64,000 bases of DNA, taken from NCBI GenBank assembly GCA_000004985.1, contig GG738876.1; one strand, 5' to 3'. This DNA comes from Naegleria gruberi (Eukaryota). The notes beneath the pieces are model-generated. The model had not been told where the DNA came from. It saw only the letters and a program-made list of their open reading frames with translations, and made no database searches. This document shows positions 22,990 through 50,000 of this stretch, piece by piece (within the stretch, counting starts at the first letter, position 1; each line of letters starts with the position of its first letter). The translations under genes were made by a program, and so were the position numbers.

Positions 22990-24499
22990 ATGCGGATTCT
23001 AGTTAGTGAAACAGCACCACTTCATCCTGTAATTTCTAAAAAGACTGGACACTTGTTTGAAAAGAGTTTGATCTTAAAGTATATTGAAGAACACGGAAAG
23101 TGTCCAATTACTGGACAAGATTTAACTCCTAATGATTTAATTGATGTAATTTGTAGGTATCGGATCTTTAATTTCTCTCATCATTGATCATCTTGTATTA
23201 TTGTTCATCTGAATAATTGTTTTAATAGATAAGAAAGGCACTGAATCATCGGTGAAGCCTAGTCAAGCTATTGCCAGTATTCCAAGCATGTTACAAACAT
23301 TCCAAAATGAATGGGACTCTGTAATGTTGGAAACTTTTACTTTGAGACAACAATTGGATAAATCAAGAAAGGAACTTTCACACTCACTTTATCAACATGA
23401 TGCTGCTTGCAGAGTTATTGCAAGATTAATGAAGGATAATGATGACACAAAGAGTATTCTCAGAAAAAATCAAAATAATATGGAAGATGAAACTTCTAAT
23501 ACTCTCTCAGAGACTGTTTCAGAAAGACTTACAAATACTGCAGAAATTCTCTCATCAAATAGAAAACAAAGAACTATTTCACCATCTCTTAAATCACCAG
23601 AGGAAATGTCAAATTCCAACACTCGTTTGTTAAATAGTGAATACAGACTCCATCAAGGAAAGGGTATTCAATCCATTGACGTTTTAAATTCATTGATTTT
23701 AACTGGAGGTAGAGATGGATCAATTTCAGTTTTTGATAAGCAATATAATACTTGTATTGGAGAGTTGAATTCTAATTCTGGACCTGTAAATTGTGCCATT
23801 TTCCACAATACTCCTGAATTTGCCTTTTCAAGTCACAATAGAGATGTTAAAATATGGTCTCTTAAGGATTCTACCTGTCTTCACACTATGGAAAAACTTC
23901 ATTTGGAACGTGTTACTGGACTTGCCTTGCATCAATCTGGTCACTACTTCTTGACATCATCTCTCGATCAGACATGGTCTTTCTGTGAAATTGAAACTGG
24001 AACTAGTTTGTTAAAGAGTAGCAATGATGAATCAGGATATACTTGTATTCAATTCCATCCAGATGGTTTATTATTTGGTACTGGTCTTCAAAATAATGCT
24101 GTAAAGATTTGGGACGTCAAGTCTCAACAAGTAGCTGCTACATTACAAGGACACTCTGGAGAAGTTACCTCACTTTCATTCTCTGAAAATGGTTACTATC
24201 TCGCTTCTTCATCAAAGGATAAGACTGTTCGTATTTGGGATTTAAGAAAAGTGGTACCTCTGCACACATTGCAATTCAATTCACCAGTTAGCAATGCTTC
24301 CTTCGACTATTCTGGTATTTATCTAGGTGCAACCTGTACTGATGGTACTGTTGGAGTTTATCAAGCTAAGGTTTGGACTGAACTCATTAATACAACAGTT
24401 CCAAACACCTGTTCTCCATCAAGCATTCGCTTTGGACCTAATGCTAGTTTTATTGCTGTTTCCGGATTGGAGGACAGCACTTTGCGATTCATTGAATAA
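22990..24499 (+). CDS. PRP19: Pre-mRNA-processing factor 19 (U-box E3 ligase with WD40 repeats); 2 exons
   Basis: U-box LHPVISKKTGHLFEKSLILKYIEEHGKCPITGQDLTPNDLIDV. Intron of about 76 nt (GTAGGT at 23153 ... TTAATAG at 23228). Exon 2 begins ...KKGTESSVKPSQAIASIPSMLQTFQNEWD, follows the conserved SLYQHDAACRVIARL and ends with WD40 repeats. ATG at 22990. Confidence 0.85.
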
Positions 24500-24559: not shown

Positions 24560-25478
24560 ATGGGTGTAGACGTTACCGTGCTAATGGTCAATCTGGACCA
24601 ATTTGAAGATTTGGGTATGCATCTACTTTTTTACTTTATTATTTAATACTTTGTAAATAGCTGAGAAACTTGTCTCCGATGAAACAGAAGATCCATCTTC
24701 CTACAAACAAGATTTGTTAGAATTAGATAGCAGATTTTATATTAACAGTTTCCGCTTGAGAGCTGCCGGTGAATTAGCAAAATTTGCAGCTAAATTCGGA
24801 TTATCAGAAACTTGGTCTGATTCAACCCAATTAGATGAATTGTTGTGTAGTATTGGCACATTTAGACAAGACAGTACAATCATACTAACTCAGGAAAACT
24901 CTGATGAAGTGGAGGAATATGTTGAATTTCCTAACTTGATTGAGTTGGGAGAAGCTTACCAATCAGTTGCAGAGTACACTTTCACATTCATTCATCCACT
25001 TTTGATTGCAGAATTGAGTGCTCATTTCGAACATCAAAATAGCATTCCTATTGAATTATTGGAAAAAGTATTCGAAAATGAATATGAAGAATATGTTCGT
25101 CCAAAGAAATTGAGAAAACCAAATTCCAATGAAGAAAGCATCGATGGAATAAGAGAATGGTTAAGCCATAATGATGAATATGTATTCTTCACCAATATCC
25201 TATTGTATTACAATACACCTGAACGTGTCTTTTCTCTTTTGGAAAAACCAAAAATTGGAAAGGAAAAAGTGAAAAATATTTTACAACCACTGCTGATGAA
25301 ATTTGAAGATATTGCAGATGAATATTGGATTTTAATTATGGAATTTATTGAAGATCCATTTTCATTGACAAGATTTGGAATGGCTCATTCGAAATTCTAC
25401 AATATTCTTTGTAAGAATCGAAAAGAATGGTATGCAGAATTCAAAAGAAATATTGGATTATTCTCATACCTGAGCTAA
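24560..25478 (+). CDS. Hypothetical protein, 2 exons
   Basis: ATG at 24560; exon 1 24560..24614 (MGVDVTVLMVNLDQFEDLG). 46-nt intron 24615..24660 (GTATGC...TAAATAG) restores the frame of ORF 24714..25478. No domain recognised. Confidence 0.55.
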
Positions 25479-25603: not shown

Positions 25604-26338
25604 ATGTATGTTGCTAATCAAGCTGTATTGGCATTGTATTCATCTGGAAAGACTAATGGAATGGTTATGGATTCAAGAGATGGAATTACACATGCTGTTC
25701 CAATTAATGATGGATTTGCCGTTTCAGATGCAATTGTGAGTTTAGAATTGGCAGGCAGTGACATTACTGATTGTTTAATGGAAATGTTGAAGGGGAAAGG
25801 GTTTCCTCAACTCCAATCCTTAACAAACGAAAGAAGAATCTTTAGAGATATTAAGGAGAAGCACTGTTATATTTCTCTTGATTTCAATACTGAAATGGTA
25901 AATGAAACATCTTTATCTATTCAAAGAGAATATGAACTACCAGATGGGTCTATCATTCCAATTGATAAAGAACGATTCAAATGCACAGAAGTTCTTTTCC
26001 AACCAAATTTGATGGAATTAGAATGTGCCTCCATTCATGAAACTATTCTCAGCTCAATTGGTAAATGTAATATTGAAATGAGAAAGAATTTGTTCAGTAA
26101 CATTCATATATCAGGTGGAAATACAATGTTTGAGGGAATTTCTGAACTATTGACCAAGGAACTGACTGCACTAGCTCCATCTGCAATGAATGTTAAGATT
26201 ATTGCTCCTCCTAAGAGGAAATATTCTGTTTGGATTGGTGGTTCGATTCTTGCGAGTTTTATTGAACATGATATGTGGCTTTCGAAAGAGAATTATGAAG
26301 AATTTGGATATGAAGTTGTTCATAGAAAGTGTTATTGA
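25604..26338 (+). CDS. N-terminally truncated actin-like protein (aligns to actin residues about 132-375 only)
   Basis: MYVANQAVLALYSSGKTNGMVMDSRDGITHAVPI...LAGSDITDCLM...IKEKHCYISLDF...YELPDGSIIPI..ERFKCTEVLFQP...ISGGNTMFEGI...KYSVWIGGSILAS..HRKCY is colinear with the actin C-terminal two-thirds. Only about 125 nt separate it from the upstream gene, so subdomain-1 and the phosphate-1 loop are not encoded. Confidence 0.75.
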   Translation: MYVANQAVLALYSSGKTNGMVMDSRDGITHAVPINDGFAVSDAIVSLELAGSDITDCLMEMLKGKGFPQLQSLTNERRIFRDIKEKHCYISLDFNTEMVNETSLSIQREYELPDGSIIPIDKERFKCTEVLFQPNLMELECASIHETILSSIGKCNIEMRKNLFSNIHISGGNTMFEGISELLTKELTALAPSAMNVKIIAPPKRKYSVWIGGSILASFIEHDMWLSKENYEEFGYEVVHRKCY

Positions 26339-28520: not shown

Positions 28521-29047
28521 TGTGATTGGTAAAGGATTGAATATTCTTGATCTCTGTTTCAATTTTCGTTCAAACTTGCACCTCATCTCCCATTTTCCTT
28601 GAAATTCAATTGTTCGGAGATGAGTGGGAGTTATTAATTGAAAATTCCGCAGTAGTAAGCACAATCTGTTCACAAGTCCATTACTTCTCCTCATGAAATC
28701 ATCAATTAATATTGAAAATTATTTGGATGTAGATATTGCAATTTCCTTCGTGTTCTCCATCTTTATTTCTCTGTGCATTATCAAAAACTACACACAGGTG
28801 CGCCCAATGATTGATCAATATTGAACCTTTTTTCATTCCTCCCACACGTGTGTGCTCCCTATCAATCATTAAGAGCATCAACATGATCCATTCAACAAAT
28901 GCAAGAGAGGCTCTCTTGAAAATTTTGGCGCGCAACTAAAATCTATGTGATTGTGTATTTGAGACTGATGGGAAGATGCTTTGAAAAAATATCTTTTTAA
29001 AATAATTTTAAATAAATTATTGTTGAAGAAAATTGATTCTAGAAAAA

Positions 29048-32017
29048 ATGTCTTCGTACGGAACGCACGGCGATGGTGGAGATGGGTTGGAATCGAGTAA
29101 ACAACTCAATGTGCTCCAAAAGATTGCTAGAAATAGAGTGGTGAATATTGTTGGTGCGATAATATTATCAATTATTTTATTATTGAGTATTGGATGTTGT
29201 GTTGTTGTTGGTGTGCTTCATTCACATTTGCTTTTCCAATGTGGATTTGCTGAATTTATATTTATGTTACTTCTTGAAGGCGCTACATTCTTCTTCTGTA
29301 TTTATCACTTGTACAATATTTACAAGTTTTTCAAGACTAGAGCACGACACTCTGGTAAGAAGGGAATTTCCGCTATTGTTGCTGCTTTATGTTCATCAGA
29401 AGTAAATCAATACAATGCATATTCTGATTCCAGACAAGGAAATGAAGAAGATGATTTTGATGATGAAGAAGATGATGAAGATGACGAAGAAGAGGAGGAA
29501 GAAGAAAGCAAATTTTCCAAGTTTGTTGTCGGCTTTTTGAAGATTGCTGCCAATGCTATTGCTGTTTTATGTTTCATCATTTTGGTACTTTTCACAGTTG
29601 TTGTCGTTCCATTGCAACAACAAACCTACCCAACTTATAACGGTACTCTTAAACTTCCAAAGTTTACACCAAAGGGATCTTCTGCTCCTACAATTTCACG
29701 TGAAAGTAATGGTGTTGTTCACATCAAGGCTTCACACGATTATGATTTATATTTCGCACAAGGTGTAGCTGTTGCTCAAGATCGTTTGTGGCAATTGGAA
29801 TTTAATCGTAGATTGTCAAATGGTATTTTGGCTGAAGTTGCTGGTGCTGATGCTGTCAATGTTGACAGTTGGTTCAGAACTCTCGGATTTGCTCGTTCTG
29901 CTGCCAACATTTTACCAACCATTGATGCTGAAACTCTTTCATTCATTCAAGCATATTGTGATGGTATTAACTCTTATATTAATAGTAATCCACCACTTCA
30001 ACCTGAATTTGTTCTCCTCAACACTAAACCAGTTGAATGGACTCCAAGTGATGTTATTGCTTATATGAAGTTTGTTTCATTCTCTCTTTCTGATAATATG
30101 GAAAAGGAAGTTTGGAGATTCAAGATGATGCAAAGAAATATCACAAAGGACAGAGTTAACGAATTGGTTCCTTTCTACCCAACTGATATGCCAACTATTT
30201 TGAGTTTGGAAGAAATGAATTTGCAAAACGTTCCAGTTGAAGAAAGAGAAAAGATTGAAAAGGCTCAACAAGATGATTCTGCTGCTTTTATTCCAAAGGC
30301 TATTCACAATTTGACCATGTCTGTCATGGAAGAAATGTTCGCTTCATTGGAAGAATCTGGTGAATGGGGTAAACAAGCTGTCAGATCAGTTTTGAAGGGT
30401 ATGGTTGCTCCAGATATCACTGGTAACAAGGCCTCAAACAATTGGGTTCTCGGAACCAAGATTACAGCAAACAATGGATCATTGTTGGCTAACGATCCTC
30501 ATTTGGATTTGACTGCTCCAGGTATTTGGTATTTGGCTCATTTGGAAGGTCCAACTCACAATGTTATTGGTTCTACTTTTGTTGGTCTTCCAGGTATTGT
30601 TATTGGTAAGAATGATTTCATTTCATGGGGTGTTACTACTGGTCTTGTTGATGCTCAAGATTTGTACGTCATGTCCGAAGTTGAAGAAGGTAAAACTTAC
30701 AACTACAATGGTAAAGTTCTCCAATATGAAACTCGTACCGAAACTATTAATGTTAAGGGAGCTGCTGCCAAGACTATTACTGTTAAGGAATCTGTCTACG
30801 GTCCAGTTATTAATGACCACTACCAAGTTGATGGTAACGTTTTGTGTTTGAAGTCTTTGACTACCTACACTAATGATACCACACTCCAAGCTTTCCTCAA
30901 GTTGAACAGAGAAGCTAAGGATTGGAACTCATTTGTTGATGTTGTCTCCTTGTTCGTTTCCCCATCCCAAAACTTTGTCTTTGCTGACAAGAGTGGTAAC
31001 ATTGGTTACTATTTGGCTGGTTTGGTTCCAATTAGAAAGGAAGGTCACAATGGTAGATTCCCAGTTATTGGTGATGGTAGCTATGATTGGCAAGGATTTA
31101 TTCCAGCTGCTGAAAAGCCAAGCGTTTACAATCCAAAGAAGGATTACATTGCTTCTGCAAACAACAGAGTTACTCCTGTTGGTTACAAGTACAGTATTAC
31201 CCAAGATTGGTACTCTTTCTATAGAGCTAGCAGAATTGTCTCATTGATTGAAACTGCTATTGAAAAGGGAACTCCACTCAATTTTGAATACATGAAGAAG
31301 ATGCAACACGACGTTCACTCACCAGTCTTTGATCAATTCAAGTTTGTTTTTGAAGCTATTCCAAAGTTCAGAAATCTCACTGAAAATAAGGAAAAGTTGA
31401 GAGAAAAGTTGATTAATTGGGACGGTGATGAAATTTTGTACTCTCAATCTGCTTCCATCTTTGAAATGTGGTACAAGATTATGGGTAACCTCACCAAGGT
31501 TGAAACTGTCAATAGATGGTCTTTCGGTCCATATCTTTACAATGCCTTGAAGAATGGTGATAGTGCTTGTGAAAATTATCACAACACTACTTGTATGTTG
31601 TTCGCTATTGACAGCTTTGAAAATGCCATTGATGCTCTTGAAGCCACTTACGGTTCTATTCCATTGTGGGGTTCTGATATTCACGAATCTGAATTCCCTA
31701 ACCCGGTAATGGATAATACTGTTCTCAAATGTTTGGCTGGAGCTACTCGTACTACTGTTGGTGGTTCTTCAACCATTAATGTTGGTGAAACTCAATATCC
31801 TGCCCTCAATTCAAGATGGGGTGTTTCTTATAGACAAGTTGTTGATTGGCGAGGCAATCAAGCTTCATTCATCATTCCACTCGGTCAATCTGGTAACTTC
31901 TTATCTCCTCTTTACACCAACTTGTTAGAAATGTGGTCTGACCCAACTGGTCAATACTTGGACATGAAATCTGCTGGTTACACTGCAACCAATACCCTTT
32001 CTCTTTCCTCTCAATAA
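29048..32017 (+). CDS. Membrane-anchored penicillin-amidase-family Ntn hydrolase (peptidase S45; AHL-acylase/aculeacin-acylase-like)
   Basis: N-terminal TM helices, poly-acidic linker EEDDFDDEEDDEDDEEEEEEE, further TM helix, then the full amidase domain. The beta-subunit N-terminal nucleophile context is GNKASNNWVLGTKITANNGSLLANDPHLDLTAPGIWYLAHL (compare E. coli PGA SNMWVIG...VNGPQFGW). ATG at 29048. Confidence 0.8.
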   Translation: MSSYGTHGDGGDGLESSKQLNVLQKIARNRVVNIVGAIILSIILLLSIGCCVVVGVLHSHLLFQCGFAEFIFMLLLEGATFFFCIYHLYNIYKFFKTRARHSGKKGISAIVAALCSSEVNQYNAYSDSRQGNEEDDFDDEEDDEDDEEEEEEESKFSKFVVGFLKIAANAIAVLCFIILVLFTVVVVPLQQQTYPTYNGTLKLPKFTPKGSSAPTISRESNGVVHIKASHDYDLYFAQGVAVAQDRLWQLEFNRRLSNGILAEVAGADAVNVDSWFRTLGFARSAANILPTIDAETLSFIQAYCDGINSYINSNPPLQPEFVLLNTKPVEWTPSDVIAYMKFVSFSLSDNMEKEVWRFKMMQRNITKDRVNELVPFYPTDMPTILSLEEMNLQNVPVEEREKIEKAQQDDSAAFIPKAIHNLTMSVMEEMFASLEESGEWGKQAVRSVLKGMVAPDITGNKASNNWVLGTKITANNGSLLANDPHLDLTAPGIWYLAHLEGPTHNVIGSTFVGLPGIVIGKNDFISWGVTTGLVDAQDLYVMSEVEEGKTYNYNGKVLQYETRTETINVKGAAAKTITVKESVYGPVINDHYQVDGNVLCLKSLTTYTNDTTLQAFLKLNREAKDWNSFVDVVSLFVSPSQNFVFADKSGNIGYYLAGLVPIRKEGHNGRFPVIGDGSYDWQGFIPAAEKPSVYNPKKDYIASANNRVTPVGYKYSITQDWYSFYRASRIVSLIETAIEKGTPLNFEYMKKMQHDVHSPVFDQFKFVFEAIPKFRNLTENKEKLREKLINWDGDEILYSQSASIFEMWYKIMGNLTKVETVNRWSFGPYLYNALKNGDSACENYHNTTCMLFAIDSFENAIDALEATYGSIPLWGSDIHESEFPNPVMDNTVLKCLAGATRTTVGGSSTINVGETQYPALNSRWGVSYRQVVDWRGNQASFIIPLGQSGNFLSPLYTNLLEMWSDPTGQYLDMKSAGYTATNTLSLSSQ

Positions 32018-32195
32018 TTTAAAGTCATTATTAAATAAATAATCTAGTTTGTATATATTTACTGTTGTTGTTAATATGAAAGAAGCGTTTCTGTGGCGAA
32101 ATTCAACATCTTCAACTGGATTCACTGAGGTTTGATCATTGTCACTTTTCAATATCTTCCTGAAAAGGGCACAAACTAAAGTTGAAAAAAACAAA

Positions 32196-33590
32196 ATGAC
32201 CAATGCCAGTTCTTCCACAACACGAACAACAAGTGCAAGCTACAGACAGCAAAAATTGAAAAGTAAACAAATAGATAATCAACTGTACGGAAATTTATCA
32301 GCACAACTTGTCTCCACCAACAACAATCAGCTCCAACTTGAACAATTACAAAAAACAACGAGACCTCTTCGAATATTATTGATGGGACCAAGAAATTGCG
32401 GAATTAAAACCTTTCTAATGAATGCTCTTGATATGGAAGCTGATGATTTCATGATTCGAACCATGTTATCAATGTCTCATAGAGTGAATCAAATTTCGAA
32501 TAGTAATCTTGCTGGACTTGATGATACAGAACTTACACGTCCATTGACTTTTCAACAAAAGGCAGAGGGTCTCTTTTCAGAGAAGAATAGAAATCTGACG
32601 CTCAATGTGTACATGTATATTTGTAGAGGAATCAAAGTTTTTGTAAAATGGGAATGGAAATATTTTGAAAGATTGAAGAGGAAAATTCATGAAAATTATG
32701 AACATCATCATTATCATGAGGAACATTTTGATTTGGTTTATAATTGGGAAGGTGACGAAGATGGTAAATTATTGGATGAGTTGATAAATGATTGTCGAGA
32801 GCAGAAACAATTGAATTCCAAAATTATTTCAATTTATTCCAAAATTGTGAATTATGGAAAAAAGGAAGTAATGAACGAATTTTACAATTCATTATTAAGA
32901 TCGACAAATATTAGATATTTGGATAATATTCAATAGTATGTTTGTCATAAGTTCAAATTTCATTCAAAAAATTTCAGTTTTTTCACACTTGATGCTTTCA
33001 ATAGAATTACTTCCAATGATTACAAGCCACTCAACCAAGATTTGCTCAAATCTCATCATCCAGACGATAAGGGAATTATTTCAATTCGGAGGGATGAGTT
33101 TGAATTTATTGACATTACAGGTCAATTGAATGAAAGAAGAAAGTGGATTCATCAATTTTCCAACTCTATTGATGTTATAATGTTCTTCATTCCAATTTCA
33201 GATTACAATCTAATCAATCCACTGACTGGAATGAATAGACTTGATGAGGCTTTTCATTTATACAATGAAATTCAAACAACGAAACTTTTTGAGAGAGCTG
33301 ACATTTCAATCATGTTAACAAAAATGGATTTGTTTAAAAAGAAACTAGTTTTGGATCCAATTTCGAATTATTTTGAAAAGTTTCAAGCGTCGAATGGAAA
33401 TTTAAAAGAAACTATGGAAGTGATGAGAGGAATATTTAGTCAAAATTTTGGGGAAGATTCGAATTATAGGAGACTGTTTGTGCATCAGGTTGATTTGACT
33501 GATGTGAATGATTTTAAAGTGGTTTATAGAGGAATTTCCAGTTCTCTTCGATTGGGAACTTTCATTTCAATTTTTGCTAGAAGGAGATGA
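32196..33590 (+). CDS. Divergent G-protein alpha-subunit-like protein with degenerate P-loop; 2 exons
   Basis: Exon 1 32196..32935 and exon 2 32978..33590, joined by a 42-nt intron (GTATGT...TTTCAG). The splice yields ...YFFTLDAFNRITSNDYKPLNQDLL...ISIRRDEFEFIDITGQLNERRKWIHQF, colinear with G-alpha YFL.DLDRI..P.Y.PT.QD.L..R..T.GI.E..F...DVGGQRSERKKWIHCF. NKXD is TKMD and the P-loop is GPRNCGIKT instead of GAGESGKST. Confidence 0.75.
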
Positions 33591-33613
33591 AACCTTTCGA
33601 ATAATTTACAATT

Positions 33614-35056
33614 TTATTGAGAATTTTGATGTTTCATAACCAAACCATGAATCTTTTTAACTCTCATTTCCTTGAGGAATTCCATCGAAAGTTTGAACCT
33701 GTAATGAGAATCCAACATTACAATTTCAATTTCCTTCTCCAAGAAATCAAACAAATCGTCTGGAAGCGACGAAATTTGACGATTCTTATACAATTCAATT
33801 TGAAACAAAACATCATGTGTGGACTTCTTATCAATATTTACAGATTTAGGGCCATTAACATTCAGGAATTCTTCATATATTTCCTGAGCTAATTGGAATT
33901 TCTTTGCTTCAACAACTTCTAATTCAGTTTCGAGTTCTTGAGTAGTTGAAAGATTTTTCTTTCTCTTGGTTGTTGGTTGACCAACACTGAGAGAAGTATT
34001 GGATTTGGAAGACTGATCAACAACAGAGATGGTGGAAGGAGTTGCGTTATTGGAAACTTCAGATAATTCGAAAGAAACGCTACCTAAACTATTAGAACTT
34101 TCAGTTTCTTCACTCAATGTTTGAACCAATTCAATTTGATATTCACACAATCGCTTGTACTGCTGAACTTTTTCAAGGAATTCAAAGTTTTCAGAGTTAA
34201 ATTCCTTCTTACAATGATTCTTAAAGAGATTTCTCAATCTGTCATTATTCATGGTGTGTGAAATGTCAACTGCTAGTGCTTCTCTTAATTTTTGAACATT
34301 GTTGGAGTCTGATCTAATAGCCAACCCAAAAACAAAGATAATGACTGGAACTGTAACTACAACTGCCAAGCAAATAATTGATAATGAAGTTATGGACATA
34401 GCATTAGTGATTTTTGACACTTGTTCTTGAGAAGCAAGTACATAATCAAGTACAACATCTTGTGCAGTTCTAAAAGTGTTTCTTCTTGCGATATAAGTGG
34501 CGGAAGTAAGCAATCGAACAGCTTCCGTAAAGTTTCCATCTCTAATATTCGAAACAGCTTGAGAATCAGTATCAGTCAAATAATTAACAATTCCCTGCAA
34601 ATTATTTCTATACTGCTGCGAAATACTCTGAGGTATCTTTTGAAGCATATTTTCAGTCAACTCATCATTCACTTTCGAATAATTATTATAATAAGCCAAA
34701 TATCCCTCATTTCCCGAATAGGCAGCCACCAACGTATAAGCTTGAATATAGGCAGTATACGTAGATACCTTCGCTCTAGTAGCCAACAAATCAATATCCT
34801 CATTCATCTGACTATTTTCACTATAAATCAGCAAACCAAGGAGAATGAGGAAAGTAATGGTATTGAGGACCATGGCAACCATTGCAAAGATTTTAATGAA
34901 ATTCAATTCGAGTTTGAAGAAACAGCAGTGGACTGTGAAGGTTTTTGGCTGTTTTTGATGTTTACGAAAGGAATCGTCGAGAGAGGATTGCTGGCGTTTG
35001 AGAGGAGGTGAAGATTCAATGCTTGTTTCGATTGGTTTCTTTGTTTCGTTTTCCAT
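33614..35056 (-). CDS. RGS-domain protein with two TM helices flanking a roughly 150-aa ectodomain (sensor-like topology)
   Basis: RGS motifs FKNHCKKEFNSENFEFLEKVQQYK, AQEIYEEFLNVNGPKSVNID and FDFLEKEIEIVMLDSHYRFKLS, with an S/T-rich insert. N-terminal TM FIKIFAMVAMVLNTITFLILLGLLIY and second TM ITSLSIICLAVVVTVPVIIFVFGLAI lie upstream of the RGS domain. Confidence 0.8.
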   Translation of the reverse strand: MENETKKPIETSIESSPPLKRQQSSLDDSFRKHQKQPKTFTVHCCFFKLELNFIKIFAMVAMVLNTITFLILLGLLIYSENSQMNEDIDLLATRAKVSTYTAYIQAYTLVAAYSGNEGYLAYYNNYSKVNDELTENMLQKIPQSISQQYRNNLQGIVNYLTDTDSQAVSNIRDGNFTEAVRLLTSATYIARRNTFRTAQDVVLDYVLASQEQVSKITNAMSITSLSIICLAVVVTVPVIIFVFGLAIRSDSNNVQKLREALAVDISHTMNNDRLRNLFKNHCKKEFNSENFEFLEKVQQYKRLCEYQIELVQTLSEETESSNSLGSVSFELSEVSNNATPSTISVVDQSSKSNTSLSVGQPTTKRKKNLSTTQELETELEVVEAKKFQLAQEIYEEFLNVNGPKSVNIDKKSTHDVLFQIELYKNRQISSLPDDLFDFLEKEIEIVMLDSHYRFKLSMEFLKEMRVKKIHGLVMKHQNSQ

Positions 35057-35980: not shown

Positions 35981-36970
35981 ATGCAAAATCATACTTCACA
36001 AGTACAGGGTGATTCTTTCTCATTGCCACCTTCTTCATCACCACCACCACCACCACAAGAAGTCTCTACACAACAGCAAACATCGTACTATTCATGGAGT
36101 CCAACTAGTCTTTCAGAAGCTGCCAAACAACAGCAAACAGAGTATTACAGTGGAGGTTCTCCAAGCTATTCACCAACTTCACCGAGCTATTCACCAACTA
36201 CACCCGTCTATGCTCCAACTTCACCAGCATATTCACCAACTTATACTCCAACCTCTCCTTGTTATTCTTATACCTCTCCATATTATAGTACGATTTTTTA
36301 TCTTCCGAGAGAGACAGTGCTGAGTTTTGATTTGGATCAAAGTGTATTGGAAAGGATTGAGAAGGAAACAAGAAATTGGGGAGTGTTGAGGTGGAGAAAT
36401 CCAGAGTTGGGTGAAAGATTTTGGGGACATGTTTATATGAGTGTTGATTCAAAGATTGTGGAAATTATTAGAGAACATTATGGACCGAAGGGATTAATTA
36501 CTAAAGTTAGGGAATTGTTGGGAGAGGTAGGAGAATCGCACTCTACGGTTGAGTATAATGCATTCTTGTTGCCAACACATTTTACTGTAATTGGGAGTAA
36601 GGAGTGGCAACAGGCATTCTTGGGATTGGAGAAGGAGGTTGAGTATTTTACAGTTAAAAATCCTGCAGAAAATGTATTCGAAAGTTCAATTGAGTTTGTG
36701 AATAGTCCATATAAGAGTTATTCAAAATTGTTTAAGGAAGAGAAAATTCAGGAATTGTGCAATTTTACCTATTTTACAAGATCTGGATTTGCAAATTCAC
36801 TTCCCAACGAAATTGTATCCCACATTAAACAATTTCTAATCATTGATCTGAAAGAAAGTGGACGAAAGGTTAAATTCTCAATCACTGGCCAAATTAGTTT
36901 AGTTCCAAGACAGTTTGGAGAAAAGCTTGGTTTCATTCTCCATGTCGATTGTCCAGAAATGAATAATTGA
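35981..36970 (+). CDS. Hypothetical protein with RNA-Pol-II-CTD-like YSPTSPS heptad repeats followed by an unknown globular domain
   Basis: The segment [44 protein letters not shown] (about 36140-36290) is followed by a well-conserved-looking, non-repetitive roughly 220-aa region. Confidence 0.55.
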
Positions 36971-40235: not shown

Positions 40236-41946
40236 ATGTTTAAAAAAATGAAAAAACAAGTTTCGTCCACTTTCTTACTGGTTATTTATTGTATTTTCGC
40301 TGCTTGTTTCTTGCTCAGTTCTGCTGAAGGATTAGTTCCATCCACACAACCATACTTTTTATGGCCTAATCCACAAACAGGAGAAGCAACAGTTTATTTT
40401 AAAAACGGAGGTTCGAAACCAGTCGAAACTTTGTGGGTTGGTTATGCTGCTTGGAAAGATGCCCCACAAGTTAAAAGCAAAATTTCCAATTTGATTTCAA
40501 GAGGAATTGTTCCATTCATGTAGGTTTTGATTAACTTATTTTATTGGAAATATTATTGGAAAGTCAATCTTATCATTTTGGAGATAATGGACTCAGAGGA
40601 CAATTCGAATTAGCTCTTGCTTTTGATAGAGAAATTGCTAGTGCTATTGGAAACTCTTTTGCCATTGTAAATTTGGAACCAGAATGGGATGTTGATGTTG
40701 TTTTGAATTTATTCAAATCTTCTCAAGGAACTCAATCATTATTGAATAGAATTCAAACATTTAAGAGTCTGGCTCCAAATTCAGTGGTTGTGAGTACTCC
40801 AGGATTGTGGAAATCAGCTCAGGACTATTCATTCTTTAGCTCTGTAGATTCCAAATTGAATGCTCGTGCCATGTTGATGCATGTTGTGAATTCTGGAGAT
40901 GCATCATGTGCTAAGAAACAAGATGGATCATTGTGGCCATATGGTGTAAAATCTTTGAGTGAGGGAATTTCAATGGTCAAGAGTAAGATTGATGAAAATT
41001 TGAACAAGATGACACAAGCTTGGGGTGGTTCTTTACCATTTGAGTGGATTTTGAGTGATGTTGGTGTTACTAGTTGTGGATGGGGAGCTGATGGACAAGC
41101 TGCTATTGTTAATGAATTGATTAAGGTGAGTAATTTTTTATATAACAATGAATATTCGAATTATTGAAATATTGTGGAATTATTTATAATATCAGAATTT
41201 GGATTGTTTATATGCTAGTGGATTCCGTGGATTTAATTTGAGAAATTCAGGTCCATCTGATTTATGGGAAAGAGCTATGGGTATCAACAATGAAGGAATG
41301 TTCACATTCACCACAAGTGCAGCAACCATGAATGTTATTAAAACTGGATTGACCAAGGTTAATGCATTCCTTGTCAATGGCCAAAAACCTTCATGCTCTT
41401 CAAATAATGGTGGATCAAATTCTGGTTCAACTTCCTCATACAAGGTCAATGTCATTAGTGGAAGTAATGATTGGTGGACTCAAATTGAAGTTTTGCCAAC
41501 TTCATCTGTTCAAACAGTTGTCTTGAAATGTGGATCTGCATCAACTTCATTGGAAAGACCAGCTTGGTCCCAAACTCAATTTGTCAAAGGACTTTCCGCA
41601 CAATGCCCAATGGGATCAGATATTCAAGTTATTGTCAACTCAAAATATACCTATCCTATCAAGTATACTGTTGGAGCTAGCTCTGCAAATACTCTCAGCG
41701 ATATGCCACCTCTATTCCAAAATTCTCCAACCAAATANNNNNNNNNNNNNNNNNNNNNNNNNNNNNNNNNNNNNNNNNNNNNNNNNNAGTTTGAAGCAAA
41801 TTAGTGAAAATACTTGGGAAGGTGAAATGCAAAATGGTTTTTGCCCAATTGGTGCCAATGTTCAATTGTTTGTAGTGTTGAGAAATGGACATGTTGAAAG
41901 ATATGATATTATTTATGGTTATGATAATGTTGCCAGATTGTATTAA
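40236..41946 (+). CDS. Secreted protein of unknown family (possible C-terminal beta-sandwich carbohydrate-binding-like domains); at least 3 exons; interrupted by an assembly gap
   Basis: Signal peptide MFKKMKKQVSSTFLLVIYCIFAACFLLSSA. Intron 1 is 40520..40563 (44 nt, GTAGGT...GAAAG) and intron 2 is 41125..41194 (70 nt, GTGAGT...ATATCAG); both restore frame between track ORFs. A 50-N gap at 41738..41787 breaks the last exon. Confidence 0.55.
41738..41787. other. Assembly gap (50 N)
   Basis: Run of exactly 50 n characters; placeholder of unknown true length. Confidence 0.95.
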
Positions 41947-44287: not shown

Positions 44288-47200
44288 TTAATTTAATTTG
44301 TTCTTTTCCATTTCACTTTTAAGGATATTGGCCAACTTGTAAATATCAGGAAGTTGGAGATTTTGCTGTATCTCTTGAGGTATGTTTAGGGAGTAGTTGT
44401 CCTCGTGATTGTAAGAGTTGTTAAATAAATTATTTGGGTGTGACTGAAATTGAATACTTTCAAATAATTGGTTAGATCTTCTTTGCTTGAACAGTTCCAT
44501 TCTTTCAATAAGATAGGCATACTTATCATTTCCGTATCTATCTTTCCATGTATTTAGCGCATTAATATCCAAATCTATCATATCCAAGAGTTGCTGCTCG
44601 AATTGTGATATAACTTGTTTGTGAGCTAATGGATTTTGAATATCTTGTGCACTGAAAGTTGAACCAAAGTAATTTGAAAGCTCCAAAGTTTCTACAATGG
44701 AAGCAAATGGAAGTTGTGAAATTTCTGAAAGTGCCTCCAACAATTCTAAATGAACCTCAGCCGCACTCGCAACTGAATTCATCAAGTTTGGTTTCAACAA
44801 TTCAAAATTCTCAATAGTGGTACATTTTGTAACAACATTGGAGAGTTTTAAAATTTCAGAATTGAGAAAATGTAAAACTCCCTTATTTGTCATTGTGGAA
44901 TTAGGGGAGGAGTTCTTTTGGGTTGCTTTGGTCTTTCTGTATACTTCCTTAACAAGGAATAACTTGGTACCAAAGACAAACAAGTTGAAAATACACAAGG
45001 CCAATGGTAGCTGTAAATCATTGAATTTTCTTCTCTTTTCATGTTCTCTGTAAATCTTGGAGAGGTTATCGATTATTTCCATGTATGAGGATAGATTGTC
45101 TAGGGTTGGTTGTACCTCTGTTAACATGTGAAGTACATGCTTAGGGATTCTGCCTGTGATATATAAATGCATATCAGCCAAAATTTTACAAAAGTAAGAA
45201 CTGAAAGAATATCTCTTGAAATTGGATGAGTCCATCTTTACAAGTCCATCAGAGAGATGAAAAGTACCCTCTGGACTGACTTTACCCAACAGTGACAAGT
45301 CATTTGATGTTTCTGGTGATTTGATAGCAAATGGTGGATCGATACGTAACATGACAGGATATTGATCCTTGCCACATGCATCAAGAGTAATTCCACACAA
45401 AATTCTAAATTTGAGCAATTTAAAATCAGCCTCCTTTGGAAGTCTCTCATAAATGTGACGAGTAGGTGATGATTGAGTATTTCGAAGTAAGAGCTCAGTT
45501 GAATTAATTCCCAAATTTTGCATAATATTCTTAATATTAGGATCGTCAGCATGTTTGGTCATTAAATCCCTCAAAGAATTATCATTTGAATCTATTACAT
45601 ATTCTTCCAGTCTATCAAAGTCAATCTTGTGTCTATTTCCAAAGTAAAAATCAACAAAGTTCAAATAAAATTTTGCTGTATCAGAATCTCCCTTGCTTGC
45701 GCAATAAACAGACAAATGACAATATGTAGTAGCAACCAAAATATTTGACCAAGAATCAAAGAAATTAGCAAGGCAATTCTTTGCCTTTTGGAATGATAAA
45801 AATCCCTGTTGATCGTGTCCCAATGCCTGACAAGTTACAGCATGAATAGAGTATAACAGAGAAAGAATTTCAGGAGAGTAGTTTGAATTACTGTCAATAC
45901 TTTCGCTCTCAAATAAAGCTTGCTCTATTAAATTAATGTCTACAAGTGAATATCCTAGAGAAATTACTCCTTCATAAAGTTCAATAGTTTTCTTCCTATA
46001 AGCAGCAATATTCAATTTTTCAGCAATTTGATTTTGGAAAAATGGTAATTGTGAAGTGTTTGATAGCATTTCAGTCCAGTTAATTCCATGTTGATCCAAA
46101 TTATTTGAAAATCCCATTTGTGAGGCAAGAATTCGTTTAAGCTCATCTGTAAACTCTAAATGAACATCATTATTCTTACTTGTTTGTGGATATGGTTGAT
46201 ATCTAGAGTTATTGCTGTTGTTTGTAGTTGCTACCACTGTTGTTGATGAACTAGCTTTGGCTGATTTAGTATTTGATTGATTATTATGTCTTCCCTTCTT
46301 TTTTGGTGACCTGTAAAGACAATCAACACCTCTTTTTGTGCATTGCGAACAAGAAGGCCACATTTTATCACACTTTAAAGTAATAAATATTAATTTGTTG
46401 TTAAATTGTTATTCACTTACCTTTTTGTGCCTACTTCTGCAGTTAACACAAGCAATTGGGAAATACATCTTCTCAGGATCTTGATTCAACTCGAGTGAAC
46501 CAGGATGTGGCACGTGTTCATCTTGATTATTATCCATAGGCTTTTCTGTCAAACTTCCATTACTGCTGCTTGTAATCATTTGGTTATCATTTAAATTGGT
46601 AACATCCAAACTAGGGTTTTGGTTATTATTATTAAACATATTGGATGAATTAGATGTCGTTACTGTTGTTGGTTGAAGAGTGTTAATGATTTGTTGTAGT
46701 ATCTCATCGTTTGAATTATTCATATTTACTGTTGATACATTGTCGTTCGGTTTCATATAATTATTTACATCAGAAAGTAATAATTGTGTCATATTATCCA
46801 TATTATTGTTGTTATTCATATTATTGTAATTGTTATTATTATTATTAGAAGGGAAATATTGATTTGTTGATTGTAACAATTGGTTTAAATCGAGATTATT
46901 CAATAAATTATTATTAGTGGAGGGGTTTGGTTGATTAATGGCTTTAGGAGTTTGTAATCCCATCATTAAATTTTGAACAATACTTGATGAATCCATAGTA
47001 CGAGAATTTAATTGACCATTTGATGTTGATGATGGAATTAAGTTATTGTTACTACTTGAATATTCTCCACCATTTTGCTGTTGTTGTTGTTGAGAGAATA
47101 ACAAATTGATGAGCATATCCTGTTGATTGTTTGTTGTATTCATCATTGATTGTCCTCCAACAGTGTTATTATTATTGCTTTGATTTGTTTTAAAGGAGGA

Positions 47201-47623
47201 AGGAGTATTGCCGATGATGTTTTCCAATGATAATGCTCTATTCATAGAAGAGGAGGTTGCTGTTGGATTGTTTAGTTGTGTGGATGGAGATAGAAATTGT
47301 TGGTGTACACTCGACGATAGATTCAAAGTATTGGTGAGTTGGCTGTTCAATCCATGTGGTGGACTATTTTGGGTGTTCGTAAATTGTTGACTATTAATTA
47401 GGTTTTGGAGTTGCTGTTCGAGCAATAAATTTTTATTATTGTTATTACTCAAAGATCCATTATTATTATTATTCAACAGTGTCGTTGTTGTTGATATGGA
47501 CGAATTGTTTGTCGTGAGCATCTGTGATGATGAGGAATGCTGCAGCGATTGTTGCTGTTGTTGTCCAGAGTTTGATGGTTGTTGGTTTGTCCTCATTTTT
47601 TTTTGATGATGTGAAACAATCAT
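44288..47623 (-). CDS. Zn(2)Cys6 transcription factor with long N/Q/S-rich N-terminal region; 2 exons
   Basis: Track ORFs 46409..47623 and 44288..46363 are joined by a 68-nt intron (46430..46363; GTAAGT...CTTTAAAG) that lies inside the zinc cluster. The splice gives PIACVNCRSRHKK|CDKMWPSCSQCTKRGVDCLY, an exact CX2CX6CX6CX2CX6C. Confidence 0.8.
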
Positions 47624-47805: not shown

Positions 47806-50000
47806 CTAACGAGTATGTAAAAATCTGTGAGGATGATTTCTCTTGGTTTCTTCATAAACTTCCAAACAAAATCCAACATGCATTTGAAGGTGAAGATATC
47901 TTCTGTGTAAAAGTGGTGACCTCTCTGTCATTTGTTTGAGGTTTCTCAGGTCTTGATAGAGATATTGAGCGAGCTCTTCTACGTAATCATACAATAAATT
48001 AATGCTTGGATCATTTAGTAGATTGGATAACACATCATAGTGAATCTTGGCAGCAACTTCAACTGAGTAAATAACAGGGAGTTGGCAATACTTGAAAAAT
48101 GGTAATTGGGTTACCTTGGTAATTTCATTGGCGGCAGAGGTTATATCTGCCGAAGAAGATATTCTGTACTTGTGTTGTTTGAATAGAATCAAAGCTTTAA
48201 CTCCAAGACAAACAACAAGGAATGTGTAGGTACGATCAGAATTCATACTTGAAAATACCTTCACAATCATGTCCAATTTTGTCATTATTTGTTGAACTGG
48301 TTCTTCCAAGCTGAAAAGTTGTGGCCTTCCAGAGTGGGACATAATAGATGACCTAAGTTGGTTGAATGTAGGACTGCTCACAGCAGTATTGAGACACGCA
48401 ATGTGCTTCTCAACAACAAATTTAGAATACTCATCAAAATCTAAAATGTCACCAAATGTCAAATTGTTGACAATTTTCTTATTAATTGCATCAATCTCAC
48501 TTTCCACAACATCTGTTAGTGAGGATAATTAGAAAATTAATAACCAAAATTTAACAACATACCACTCAAATAGAATAATTCTGAAACACATAGACCTTGT
48601 CTAATAAAACTACAATGTTCATCCATGTCCTTTTCTCTTTCTTTCAAATACCATGTGCAAATAGAATAGAAATATTTGGATCTTGCCACACAATCCAAAT
48701 AACATTTAGAGTTGGCTGCTTTTGAACATGCTGTGGCTGAAGAACATTTGGATGGACTTTTGCATTCAGCACTCAATAGATAGTATGCCATCAACGTGTA
48801 CGTATAAATGACAGAACTGTCATTGGTTTGATCGAAACACTTGGAAATGTGATCTCTTCCCTTCTCGAAAAATATTTTAGCAAATCCCATATTACCAATC
48901 CTGAAGAATGAAATAGCATGCATTAAAAACAAGAATGCCAGCTTGGAGTTTCCTAGGGGCTCTCTAGGGTCAATCTTGTCTTCCAGCTCGCTCTCTAGGT
49001 CAGTTTTTCCTGTAATAGAAACACTGAGCCAATACATTAATTCATCTCTGTTGGATGGTGGGACCATAGAATAGGAAAGACTCTTATACACATCTAATGA
49101 AATATTGTCAAAATATTTTCTATCAAGCTCAATTTGTCGTAAGTTATTGAGATAGGCTCTTTCATTGATATACCTTGATTCTCTTTTCACTGGAATTGGA
49201 ACTGATGGAGGTGATTCCTTCCTTTTGGATATTGTTTTGCTCTTTCTCTCAGTAATTACAGATGAGTCATCAACAAATTGATACTCTACAACACCTGTCA
49301 ATGAATTATTCGAATTTAGTATGGTTTTTGGACCTCTTTTTCTTGCTTGAGCATAAACACATTGCTTTTGTGAACGTAGACAATTGGAGCAACCAGGATA
49401 AGCCACACGGTCACACTTTTTGTGATTCAACTTGCAAAAGATACAAGCATTATTCATCAATACAACATCTACATTTGTTGATTGAGCTGTTATTGAATCT
49501 ATATTTGAAGGACTTGTTTTATCACATGAATTAGAGGCTTTAGAAGATGCTGTAAATGTTGATGAACTCTCGGATGAGTTGTGTACAAGTAAACCTGTAT
49601 TCAGCATTGTGAATGGAGTATTTACCTGTGTAAGATTGAAGAAGTGATCAGTTGTATTGTTGGTAGTGTTTGTTGGTAATGTTGGAGTCTTCTTCTTCGT
49701 ACTTACAAAGGCTGGATTGAAATTGTTTTCCATTTGATTATTACTCCTCATCACATCACTTGATGAAGTGGCTGATGAGGTTGCATGATGATTAGATTGT
49801 TGCGCCATCATTTGTGTGATGTTATTGTTGGAGAACATGTTTTGTGAATTAAATAAGAGGTTTGAGCCAACATTAGGAAGAGTCACCCTTTCGCTCTGAC
49901 CAGTCCAGGAATTTGTCTGTTGGCATGTTGACGAAGAAGGCTGCTGATGCAAGTTCAAATTAAATTGCTGATGTTGTTGTTGATGATGTTGCATTATCAA
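47806..50000 (-). CDS. Zn(2)Cys6 transcription factor; 2 exons
   Basis: ACIFCKLNHKKCDRVAYPGCSNCLRSQKQC zinc cluster after a poly-Q N-terminus. A 50-nt intron (48562..48513; GTATGT...CACTAACAG) joins ORF 48537..50000 in frame to ORF 47806..48507 (...ELFYLS|DVVESEIDAINKK...). Confidence 0.7.

What the first reader, a model, noticed from the sequence alone, without database searches (positions are those of the whole stretch)
32196..33590. G-alpha-like protein with rearranged nucleotide-binding motifs (candidate pseudo-GTPase)
The protein aligns along the whole G-alpha fold (switch II DITGQ..ERRKWIHQF; TKMD for NKXD; C-terminal TDV..F region). The Walker-A is GPRNCGIKT, with an extra residue before the Lys, where canonical G-alpha has GAGESGKST. 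The switch-I Arg position appears not to be conserved (..KSHHPDDKGII.. versus ..RTRVKTTGI..), and DVGGQ is DITGQ. This looks like a G-alpha that may bind nucleotide atypically or act as a scaffold. Its position next to an RGS gene is notable because RGS proteins act on the switch regions.
Basis: seen in the sequence. Interest (0 to 1): 0.7.

Follow-up and report, generated by a model that had tools for sequence, protein, structure and literature searches.

The report
Divergent Naegleria G-alpha with broken GTPase motifs
This Naegleria gruberi gene encodes a real but very divergent G-protein alpha subunit whose GTP-binding and GTP-cutting residues are largely replaced, so it probably acts as a non-switching "decoy" or scaffold, and the public annotation has it cut in half and unnamed.

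Summary
Window 32196-33590 (+) is a two-exon gene in Naegleria gruberi NEG-M. The spliced 450-aa product matches Pfam G-alpha at 143 bits (E 1.4e-41).

The 42-nt GT..AG intron is supported by comparison. A 38%-identical metagenomic homolog has a 40-nt intron at the same codon and phase. The public model, EFC42980.1 "predicted protein" (246 aa), stops at the TAG inside this intron and misses the recognisable G-alpha half.

Many nucleotide-pocket residues are replaced:
- P-loop GPRNCGIKT: G42R, K46I, S47K (Gαi1 numbering)
- Arg finger to His
- switch-I Thr to Asp
- G202T, the known Gαo G203T dominant-negative change
- A326L

DxxGQ, the switch-II Trp, and the K and D of TKMD are retained.

It belongs to a small Naegleria-type subfamily that shares most of these losses and two indels. 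Its closest relatives are under purifying selection (dN/dS 0.2). The other members with a visible P-loop keep the Walker lysine.

The best reading is a GTPase-dead G-alpha-like protein, analogous to plant XLGs. Whether it binds nucleotide is untested. The RGS neighbour is probably coincidental. I class it as a new variant of a known kind, of moderate interest.

The parts
32196..32935 (+). Exon 1. It encodes the N-terminal helix, strand β1, the degenerate P-loop, helix α1 and an enlarged all-helical domain with a His-rich insert. It equals the whole of the public model EFC42980.1 apart from the last partial codon.
   Evidence: The exact 246-aa product is NCBI EFC42980.1 / XP_002675724.1 / D2VJM7, named 'predicted protein'.
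32936..32977 (+). Phase-2 spliceosomal intron of 42 nt, GTATGT...TTTCAG, containing an in-frame TAG.
   Evidence: The homolog on L003 has a 40-nt GTAAGT..AG intron at the identical codon position and phase. The Pfam and PDB alignments are colinear across the junction. The intron and TAG are kept in a 99.5%-identical strain contig, L004.
32978..33590 (+). Exon 2 including the TGA stop. [quoted passage not shown]
   Evidence: The spliced 450-aa protein is not in the 15-billion-protein collection.
32262..32285 (+). N-terminal helix motif SKQIDNQL, residues 23-30. It matches the G-alpha consensus SKxIDxxL.
32385..32411 (+). Degenerate P-loop / Walker A, G64-P-R-N-C-G-I-K-T72, against canonical GAGESGKST. 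The changes are G42->R, E43->N, K46->I and S47->K.
   Evidence: K46 is invariant and S47 is S or T in all 65 reference G-alphas, but that reference set was selected for an intact G....GK[ST] motif.
33036..33080 (+). Switch I / G2, QDLLKSHHPDDKGII. The Arg finger R178 is His273 and the Mg-binding T181 is Asp276, with one extra residue.
   Evidence: The relative on L003 has QDILGSYHQD at the same place.
33111..33158 (+). G3 / switch II, D292-I-T-G-Q296 then LNERRKW303IHQF. D200, G203, Q204 and W211 are kept. G202 is Thr294 and R205 is Leu.
33318..33329 (+). G4, T361-K-M-D364 in place of NKxD. The Lys and the guanine-specificity Asp are kept.
33489..33503 (+). G5, V418-D-L-T-D422 in place of TCATD. 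A326 is Leu420.
33546..33587 (+). Non-canonical basic C-terminal tail, LRLGTFISIFARRR. The relatives end LKLGNLYTMFAKQRQ.
33614..35056 (-). Convergent neighbour with 23 bp between the stop codons. It is a 480-aa protein with two transmembrane segments and a C-terminal RGS box (EFC43058.1). It is listed as context; no functional link is shown.
   Evidence: Pfam RGS at 2.1e-08. The RGS-box motifs EFNSENFEF and PKSVNID align to RGS5/RGS1/RGS8.

Best explanation
[quoted passage not shown] It has lost the machinery for the normal GTP switch.

Shown:
- The fold-level homology to G-alpha.
- The gene structure.
- Replacement of eight key pocket residues.
- Membership in a small divergent subfamily that shares most of these replacements.
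- Purifying selection in the closest relatives.

Inferred:
- There is no Lys or Ser at the Walker positions.
- There is an Arg at the Ras-G12-equivalent position.
- There is no arginine finger and no Mg-binding Thr.
- A Thr sits where Gαo G203T is dominant-negative.
- A Leu sits where even A326S weakens guanine binding.
- From these, the protein should bind guanine nucleotide weakly or not at all and should not hydrolyse GTP at a useful rate.

The N-terminal-helix motif (SKxIDxxL) and the switch-II helix (ERRKWIHxF) are the best-conserved parts. The most likely mode of action is therefore nucleotide-independent binding of normal G-alpha partners, most plausibly Gβγ. It would then work as a buffer, decoy or scaffold, as proposed for plant XLG proteins.
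For: - Family membership: Pfam G-alpha at 143 bits, PDB G-alpha matches at about 1e-21, and a custom profile of 65 G-alphas at 147 bits.
- Gene model: the intron position and phase are conserved in the L003 homolog. No other Walker-A-coding exon lies on the + strand in 31900-33700.
- Residue map against 65 G-alphas: K46 is 65/65 K (the set was selected for the Walker motif) and is Ile here. S47 is 65/65 S or T and is Lys here. R178 is 61/65 R and is His here. T181 is 62/65 T and is Asp here. G202 is 59/65 G and is Thr here. A326 is 60/65 A and is Leu here. G42 is 51/65 G and is Arg here.
- Published effects of the same positions: K46 contacts the β/γ phosphates and is lost in the low-affinity XLG2 (10.1101/795088). 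R178C abolishes hydrolysis. Gαi1 G42R cannot reach the active state (PMC9283941). Gαo G203T, the P-loop Ser mutants and A326S are dominant-negative or lower nucleotide affinity (PMC5022103).
- Not a dead gene: the relatives L001 and L003 differ by 13 synonymous and 12 non-synonymous changes, giving dN/dS 0.20 and binomial p 2.5e-4. The altered switch I (S-x-H-x-D) and the DI[TS]GQ, TK[ML]D and LTD motifs are conserved between NgGa and L003 at 38% overall identity.
- Subfamily: two shared indels plus Thr at N269, Leu or Ile at A326, and no R178 or T181, in NgGa, L003, P0012, P0073 and N. lovaniensis P0055.
Against: - No biochemical or structural test was possible.
- The residues that matter only for nucleotide binding are conserved in NgGa and its relatives: D292, G295, Q296, K362 and D364, plus the switch-II Trp. 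That is not expected for a fully nucleotide-free protein. XLG2, by contrast, has RLNP for DVGG.
- Three subfamily members keep a canonical GK[ST]-type Walker A: P0012 GMHGSGKTT, P0073 GSSGSGKTS and P0055 GSANSGKKT. The subfamily as a whole may therefore still bind nucleotide.
- K71-T72 could act as a shifted Lys-Thr pair.
- The P-loop of the closest relative could not be recovered, so conservation of GIKT is unknown.
- Expression and splicing are not shown by RNA data.
- Gβγ binding is pure inference.
Confidence: 0.55

Rival explanations
1. It is an atypical but still nucleotide-binding G-alpha. It loads GTP, possibly without Mg2+ and with K71/T72 acting as a shifted Walker pair. Lacking the Arg finger and having Arg at the G12-like position, it stays locked in a GTP-like 'on' state. 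It would then be a constitutive signaller rather than an empty decoy.
For: - DxxGQ, the switch-II Trp, and the Lys and Asp of TKMD are kept in NgGa and in all or most subfamily members.
- Three relatives keep GK[ST]-type P-loops.
- TKxD is used by working GTPases such as Rac1 (established knowledge).
- Naegleria G-alphas tolerate P-loop variation that slows hydrolysis. The Nf Gα1 TAQ P-loop is an example (PMC9283941).
Against: - Lys46 and Ser47 are both out of register in NgGa.
- Leu at A326 should clash with the guanine ring, given that A326S already lowers affinity (PMC5022103).
- Thr at G202 mimics the dominant-negative Gαo G203T.
- The Mg-binding Thr181 is Asp.
Confidence: 0.3
2. It is a decaying pseudogene, or only the truncated 246-aa product of the public model is made. 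The in-frame TAG would be a real stop and exon 2 a relic.
For: - The public annotation ends at the TAG.
- No RNA evidence is available.
- No relative of the N-terminal half was found by word-based search.
- Within-species comparison is uninformative, with 3 non-synonymous and 2 synonymous differences.
Against: - A 203-codon open frame follows the intron in 34% GC DNA. My rough estimate of the chance of that is about 2e-7.
- The intron has GT..AG ends, and its position and phase are shared with L003.
- Exon 2 is the most conserved part, at 38-44% identity to relatives that are themselves under purifying selection.
- The G-alpha alignment is colinear across the junction with canonical spacing.
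Confidence: 0.08
3. It is a gene-model artefact. A different splice or start would supply a canonical GxxxxGKS exon, making the protein an ordinary G-alpha.
Against: - The P-loop lies in the middle of a 246-codon uninterrupted exon that starts at the annotated ATG.
- It is preceded by a recognisable N-terminal-helix motif and a β1 strand (RILLMG).
- A scan of all three + frames over 31900-33700 finds no [AG]xxxxGK[ST].
- Switch I, G202 and G5 are also aberrant and lie in exon 2.
Confidence: 0.03
4. The G-alpha-like gene and the convergent RGS gene form a functional pair, with the RGS protein binding or regulating this particular G-alpha. This is compatible with any of the readings above and is scored on its own.
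For: - The genes lie tail to tail, 23 bp apart.
- The RGS box keeps the Asn-thumb motif VNID.
- XLG2 still binds AtRGS1 without nucleotide (10.1101/795088).
Against: - RGS genes are very abundant in Naegleria: 28 7TM-RGS, 79 other RGS proteins and 1 RGS-RhoGEF in N. fowleri.
- There is no RGS neighbour at L002, L003, L006 or L007.
- Thr182 is not conserved and the Gly183 region carries an insertion.
- A GTPase-dead G-alpha has nothing for a GAP to accelerate.
Confidence: 0.1

Closest known systems
Plant extra-large G proteins (XLG1-3), e.g. Arabidopsis XLG2, the 'decoy Gα'
   Same: Both have a G-alpha fold with the P-loop Lys replaced, no arginine finger and an altered G5 Ala. XLG2 is proposed to act without nucleotide by binding Gβγ and RGS (10.1101/795088).
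   Different: - XLGs carry a long N-terminal extension ahead of the C-terminal Gα domain and are restricted to plants. NgGa has only about 60 residues before the P-loop.
- XLG2 has also lost DVGG (RLNP) and the catalytic Gln. NgGa keeps D, G and Q.
- There is no evidence of common descent, so the resemblance would be convergent.
Engineered or disease dominant-negative mammalian Gα mutants (Gαo G203T, Gαi1 G42R, Gαo S47C / Gαs S54N, Gαi1 A326S, R178C)
   Same: NgGa naturally carries a change at each of these positions: T294, R66, K71, L420 and H273.
   Different: The mutants are single substitutions in otherwise canonical proteins. NgGa combines all of them in a protein only about 28% identical to Gαi1. 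The combined effect has not been measured.
Canonical Naegleria Gα subunits (13 in N. fowleri), including Nf Gα1 with its variant P-loop
   Same: They come from the same genus and family. P-loop variation there is known to slow hydrolysis and to abolish RGS sensitivity (PMC9283941).
   Different: - The variation that paper highlights in Nf Gα1 is confined to three P-loop residues (TAQ), and it calls the rest of the loop highly conserved.
- The Nf Gα subunits it assayed respond to GppNHp or AlF4-, and it refers to a conserved arginine finger.
- NgGa lacks the Walker Lys/Ser and the Arg finger.
- No N. fowleri ortholog could be identified here. The published cloning primers do not match the N. 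lovaniensis subfamily gene.
PseudoGTPases in general (GTPase fold with lost nucleotide binding and/or hydrolysis)
   Same: The sequence signature of degenerate G1, G2 and G5 motifs within a conserved fold.
   Different: The class is defined by biochemistry, which was not tested. NgGa keeps G3 and most of G4.

Membership tests
Heterotrimeric G-protein alpha subunit (Pfam PF00503) | Significant match to the family profile above the curated threshold | tested here: met
   143.2 bits against a cut-off of 48.8, E 1.4e-41, residues 127-433. A custom profile gives 147 bits.
Heterotrimeric G-protein alpha subunit (Pfam PF00503) | Ras-like domain with an all-helical domain inserted between G1 and switch I, plus an N-terminal helix | tested here: met
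   The alignment is colinear with Gαi1 from SKxIDxxL through the P-loop, a helical region of about 190 residues with insertions, switch I-III, G4 and G5. No 3-D model could be made.
Heterotrimeric G-protein alpha subunit (Pfam PF00503) | G1 Walker A GxxxxGK[ST] | tested here: not met
   The sequence is GPRNCGIKT. Ile is at K46 and Lys at S47. No alternative exon supplies the motif.
Heterotrimeric G-protein alpha subunit (Pfam PF00503) | G2 / switch I arginine finger and Mg-binding Thr (RxxT) | tested here: not met
   His273 and Asp276 occupy positions where 61/65 and 62/65 references have R and T.
Heterotrimeric G-protein alpha subunit (Pfam PF00503) | G3 DxxGQ with the catalytic Gln and the switch-II Trp | tested here: met
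   D292-I-T-G295-Q296 and W303 are present. The first Gly (G202) is Thr.
Heterotrimeric G-protein alpha subunit (Pfam PF00503) | G4 NKxD | tested here: inconclusive
   The sequence is TKMD. Asn is replaced (62/65 references have N), while Lys and Asp are kept. TKxD is functional in Rac1 (established knowledge).
Heterotrimeric G-protein alpha subunit (Pfam PF00503) | G5 T-C-A-T with a small residue (Ala) against the guanine | tested here: not met
   The sequence is V-D-L-T. Leu420 sits at A326, where 60/65 references have A.
Heterotrimeric G-protein alpha subunit (Pfam PF00503) | N-terminal lipidation signal (Met-Gly, and/or an early Cys) | tested here: not met
   The protein starts MTNASSSTTRTT, with no Gly2 and no Cys in the first 20 residues.
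Heterotrimeric G-protein alpha subunit (Pfam PF00503) | GTP binding and hydrolysis, and Gβγ binding | not testable with these tools
   This needs recombinant protein.
PseudoGTPase | GTPase fold that does not bind and/or does not hydrolyse nucleotide | not testable with these tools
   Only the sequence proxies (G1, G2 and G5 lost) were assessed.
Plant XLG family | Long N-terminal extension fused to a C-terminal Gα-like domain; plant lineage | tested here: not met
   Only about 60 residues precede the P-loop, and Pfam finds no other domain. The organism is the heterolobosean N. gruberi.
Divergent Naegleria-type Gα-like subfamily (defined here) | A one-residue insertion after the switch-II helix (FSNSID against FEG-VT) and a one-residue deletion in switch III. 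Also Thr at N269, Leu or Ile at A326, and no R178 or T181. | tested here: met
   These are shared by NgGa, L003/P0007/P0156, P0012, P0073 and N. lovaniensis P0055. Monophyly was not recovered by a crude NJ bootstrap: 0/100 for the four tested members (NgGa, L003, P0012, P0055) and 88/100 for NgGa + L003.

The most novel reading that the evidence does not exclude
Heterolobosean amoebae possess their own clade of G-alpha-derived pseudo-switches, evolved independently of plant XLGs, that tune G-protein signalling by holding Gβγ or other partners without cycling nucleotide. The N. gruberi member is the extreme case and has lost even the Walker lysine. Previous G-alpha censuses would have missed it, because the reference gene model is truncated before the recognisable domain.
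Probability: 0.25. Interest if true: 0.6.

Novelty: new variant of a known kind. Interest (0 to 1): 0.4.

Why it matters
Decoy G-alpha proteins that work without nucleotide are so far described for plants (XLGs). A second, independent origin in Naegleria would show that switching off the switch is a recurrent way to regulate heterotrimeric G-protein signalling. Naegleria is a deep-branching eukaryote with an unusually large G-protein and RGS toolkit.

It would also give a natural protein that combines the textbook dominant-negative substitutions.

Practically, the reference annotation of N. gruberi (EFC42980.1 / NAEGRDRAFT_50090) is truncated and unnamed. It should be extended by a second exon and labelled G-alpha-like. 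Censuses of Naegleria G-alpha genes based on that proteome are likely to have missed it.

Tried and rejected
- Word-indexed homolog search with the full spliced protein returned nothing at E<=1e-5. With exon 1 alone it returned only itself. With a subfamily alignment it added no new members beyond P0006, P0007 and P0012.
- The exhaustive representative search would not accept the spliced or the unspliced protein, so it was run with exon 2 only.
I did not model single exons, because the Ras-like domain is split between them.
- I tried to recover the P-loop of the closest relative. Contigs L001, L003 and L005 all end within about 130 nt upstream of the shared intron. Two metagenome scans, one by protein alignment and one by an exact 45-mer, found nothing.
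- A neighbour-joining bootstrap supported NgGa + L003 (88/100) but not a four-member clade (0/100). The subfamily therefore rests on shared indels and residues, not on a tree.
- There is no synteny with the N. lovaniensis subfamily gene apart from the gene itself.
- I tried to link the N. lovaniensis member (P0055) and NgGa to a named N. fowleri Gα through the published cloning primers. None matched at the expected positions.
- The Anantharaman et al. 2011 survey (PMC3396428) is not held, so I could not check whether it lists inactive Naegleria G-alphas.
- No paper mentions the locus tag or accessions.
- ORF 3107-4003 looked RGS-like by eye. Pfam finds only a SAM domain, so I rejected that idea.
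Full report
**What the window is.** Exact look-ups of neighbouring ORFs identify the window as part of a 396,977-bp scaffold of Naegleria gruberi NEG-M. The RGS ORF on the minus strand at 33614-35056 is EFC43058.1. The ORF at 35981-36967 is EFC42981.1. The window has 34% GC and is gene-dense.

**The gene and its model.**
- An ATG at 32196 opens a 246-codon frame that ends at a TAG at 32934-32936.
- A GTATGT...TTTCAG segment of 42 nt (32936-32977) can be removed in phase 2. This joins the frame to a 203-codon frame ending at TGA 33588-33590 and gives 450 aa.
- The public record contains only the first half. EFC42980.1 / XP_002675724.1 / D2VJM7 (NAEGRDRAFT_50090) is a 246-aa 'predicted protein' with no Pfam domain on record. 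The spliced 450-aa protein is absent from the 15-billion-protein collection.

**Evidence for the splice.** There are three independent lines.
1. The Pfam G-alpha alignment (E 1.4e-41, 143 bits, residues 127-433) and the PDB alignments run colinearly across residue 246/247. The spacing is within two residues of Gαi1.
2. A homolog on a JGI metagenome contig (L003) is 38% identical over 226 residues (E 4e-53). It has a 40-nt GTAAGT..AG intron at exactly the same codon and phase (..ENCR|H-FFSP against ..DNIQ|Y-FFTL). It also has a second 37-nt intron that N. gruberi lacks.
3. A metagenomic contig 99.5% identical to the window (L004) keeps the intron and both frames.

No RNA evidence was available.

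**Checking the motifs.** I aligned the protein to human Gαi1 and 64 full-length G-alphas recovered by the exhaustive search.

Replaced positions (Gαi1 numbering):

| Position | Usual role | Residue here |
|---|---|---|
| G42 | P-loop, Ras-G12 equivalent | R66 |
| E43 | P-loop | N67 |
| K46 | Walker Lys | I70 |
| S47 | Walker Ser | K71 |
| R178 | arginine finger | H273 |
| T181 | Mg2+ ligand | D276 |
| G202 | first Gly of DVGGQ | T294 |
| R205 | switch II | L297 |
| N269 | G4 | T361 |
| C325 | G5 | D419 |
| A326 | G5, against the guanine | L420 |

Retained positions: G40, G45, T48, D200, G203, Q204, E207, R208, K210, W211, H213, F215, K270, D272, T327 and D328.

In the reference set the replaced positions are 78-100% conserved. 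The set was chosen for having a Walker motif, so K46 is uninformative there. Separately, 64 of 70 full-length-sized hits had the motif.

A profile test favours a gapless P-loop alignment over a one-residue insertion. The wild-type segment scores 6.9 bits. The substitution repair scores 17.7 bits and the deletion repair 10.8 bits. The N. lovaniensis relative's GSANSGKKTF also lines up without a gap against GPRNCGIKTF. No alternative exon encoding [AG]xxxxGK[ST] exists on the + strand between 31900 and 33700.

The protein also lacks the Met-Gly or Cys lipidation signals, and it has a basic, non-canonical C-terminal tail.

**What the substitutions mean.** This part rests on the literature and is inference.
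- K46 contacts the β/γ-phosphates, and its loss in XLG2 accompanies 100-1000-fold weaker GTPγS binding (10.1101/795088).
- R178 and Q204 are the catalytic pair, and R178C abolishes hydrolysis.
- Gαi1 G42R cannot adopt the active conformation (PMC9283941).
- Gαo G203T, P-loop Ser mutants and D273N are dominant-negative. A326S lowers nucleotide affinity by a steric clash with the guanine. T181 helps to bind Mg2+ (PMC5022103).
- Gαo G203 is the first Gly of DVGGQ, because Q205 is the catalytic Gln of Gαo (established knowledge). T294 is therefore its natural equivalent.
- TKMD is not disabling in itself, since Rac1 uses TKLD (established knowledge).

**Relatives.** The exhaustive search with exon 2 found 3,916 G-alphas. 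Only two were closer than generic family level: P0006 (99%, a strain variant) and P0007 (44%).

Looking at which hits share the aberrant positions uncovered a small subfamily:
- NgGa;
- P0007/P0156/P0157 (loci L001, L003, L005);
- P0012 and P0073, from the same ENA metagenome;
- P0055 from Naegleria lovaniensis (PYSW02000040.1).

All members lack R178 and T181. All have Thr at N269, Leu or Ile at A326 and a non-Gly at G202. They share a one-residue insertion after the switch-II helix and a one-residue deletion in switch III. In the other 64 sequences, Thr at N269 occurs once and Leu or Ile at A326 never.

A crude NJ bootstrap supports only NgGa + L003 (88/100). I therefore treat the subfamily as probable, not proven.

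Three members keep the Walker lysine: GMHGSGKTT, GSSGSGKTS and GSANSGKKT. NgGa is the only one seen without it. The P-loop of its closest relative could not be recovered.

The two metagenomic alleles of the closest relative differ by 13 synonymous and 12 non-synonymous changes, giving dN/dS 0.20 and p 2.5e-4. That lineage is under purifying selection.

**The RGS neighbour.** The convergent gene ends 23 bp away and encodes a protein with two transmembrane segments and a genuine RGS box. The motifs EFNSENFEF and PKSVNID align to RGS1/5/8, including the Asn-thumb position.

Several points weigh against a functional link:
- N. fowleri has 28 7TM-RGS, 79 other RGS proteins and 1 RGS-RhoGEF (PMC9283941). 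An RGS neighbour is therefore expected for roughly 2% of genes by chance.
- None of the related loci has an RGS neighbour.
- The switch-I Thr182 used by RGS boxes is not conserved.

I regard the adjacency as probably coincidental.

**Interpretation.**
- Most likely (about 0.55): a selected, GTPase-dead G-alpha-like protein that works mainly through protein-protein contacts. Gβγ is the most plausible partner, given the conserved N-terminal-helix and switch-II motifs. This is analogous to plant XLGs but of independent origin.
- Main rival (about 0.3): it still binds GTP in an unusual way and is locked on. The conserved D, G, Q, K and D of G3 and G4, and the intact Walker lysine of its relatives, keep this open.
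- Pseudogene (about 0.08) and gene-model artefact (about 0.03) are unlikely.

**Novelty.** The sequence is public but mis-modelled and unnamed. No paper in the library mentions it. G-alpha-like decoys are known in plants, and variant P-loops are known in N. fowleri. I rate it a new variant of a known kind, with moderate interest.

Noticed in passing
window 32196-33590: The reference annotation (EFC42980.1 / XP_002675724.1 / NAEGRDRAFT_50090, 'predicted protein', 246 aa) stops at the TAG inside the 42-nt intron. The second exon, which carries the recognisable G-alpha half, is unannotated.
   Followed up: yes
window 33614-35056 (-): The RGS protein has a receptor-like layout. By eye there is one hydrophobic segment near residues 56-80 and a second near 223-248, separated by about 140 mostly polar residues. 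These are followed by an RGS box split by a Ser/Thr-rich insert of about 80 residues. It differs from the 7TM-RGS class described for Naegleria.
   Followed up: partly
window 32076-32135 (+): A 19-codon upstream ORF (MKEAFLWRNSTSSTGFTEV*) lies about 60 nt before the G-alpha-like start codon, in the 178-bp gap after the amidase gene.
   Followed up: no
window 29033-32017 (+): A 994-aa protein has a full-length bacterial-type penicillin amidase domain (Pfam E 8.7e-180). It is preceded by hydrophobic segments and a run of acidic residues. The exact ORF translations tried from the TTG at 29033 and from 29045 are not in the protein collection, so the public model may differ.
   Followed up: partly
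window 15529-17406 (+), 48537-50000 (-), and by eye 44288-46363 (-) and 46409-47623 (-): Several genes carry fungal-type Zn(2)-Cys(6) binuclear-cluster motifs. Pfam confirms two. The other two show CxxCxxxxxxC-like starts or ends split across ORFs. Three of the genes lie in tandem at 44-50 kb.
   Followed up: partly
window about 41.75-41.80 kb: A run of N (an assembly gap) interrupts the ORF at 41199-41804.
   Followed up: no
window 13855-15183 (+): The protein is made almost entirely of Pro/Arg-rich repeats (…GRPPRPDHSGRRP…), with a signal-like start and a C-terminal hydrophobic segment. Long ORFs on other frames and on the opposite strand of the same repeat are artefacts of the repeat.
   Followed up: no
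window 25604-26338 (+) and 24714-25478 (+): An actin-family ORF matches only positions 126-409 of the Pfam actin model. Its N-terminal part must lie in an upstream exon or be missing. The upstream ORF has no Pfam match.
   Followed up: no
window 23100-23260 (+): The Prp19 gene has its U-box on a separate upstream exon. The joining intron appears to be about 87 nt (GTAATT...ATAAG), so intron sizes in this window are not uniform.
   Followed up: partly
L003 1-3 and L005 1: Two independent contigs from the same JGI metagenome (3300002220) that carry the closest relative start within 3 nt of each other. This suggests a repeat or hard-to-assemble stretch in the helical-domain region of that gene.
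   Followed up: no
The word-indexed protein search with the full 450-aa query returned no hit. This was despite the identical 246-aa protein P0159 being a cluster representative in that database. The same tool found P0159 when exon 1 alone was the query.
   Followed up: partly
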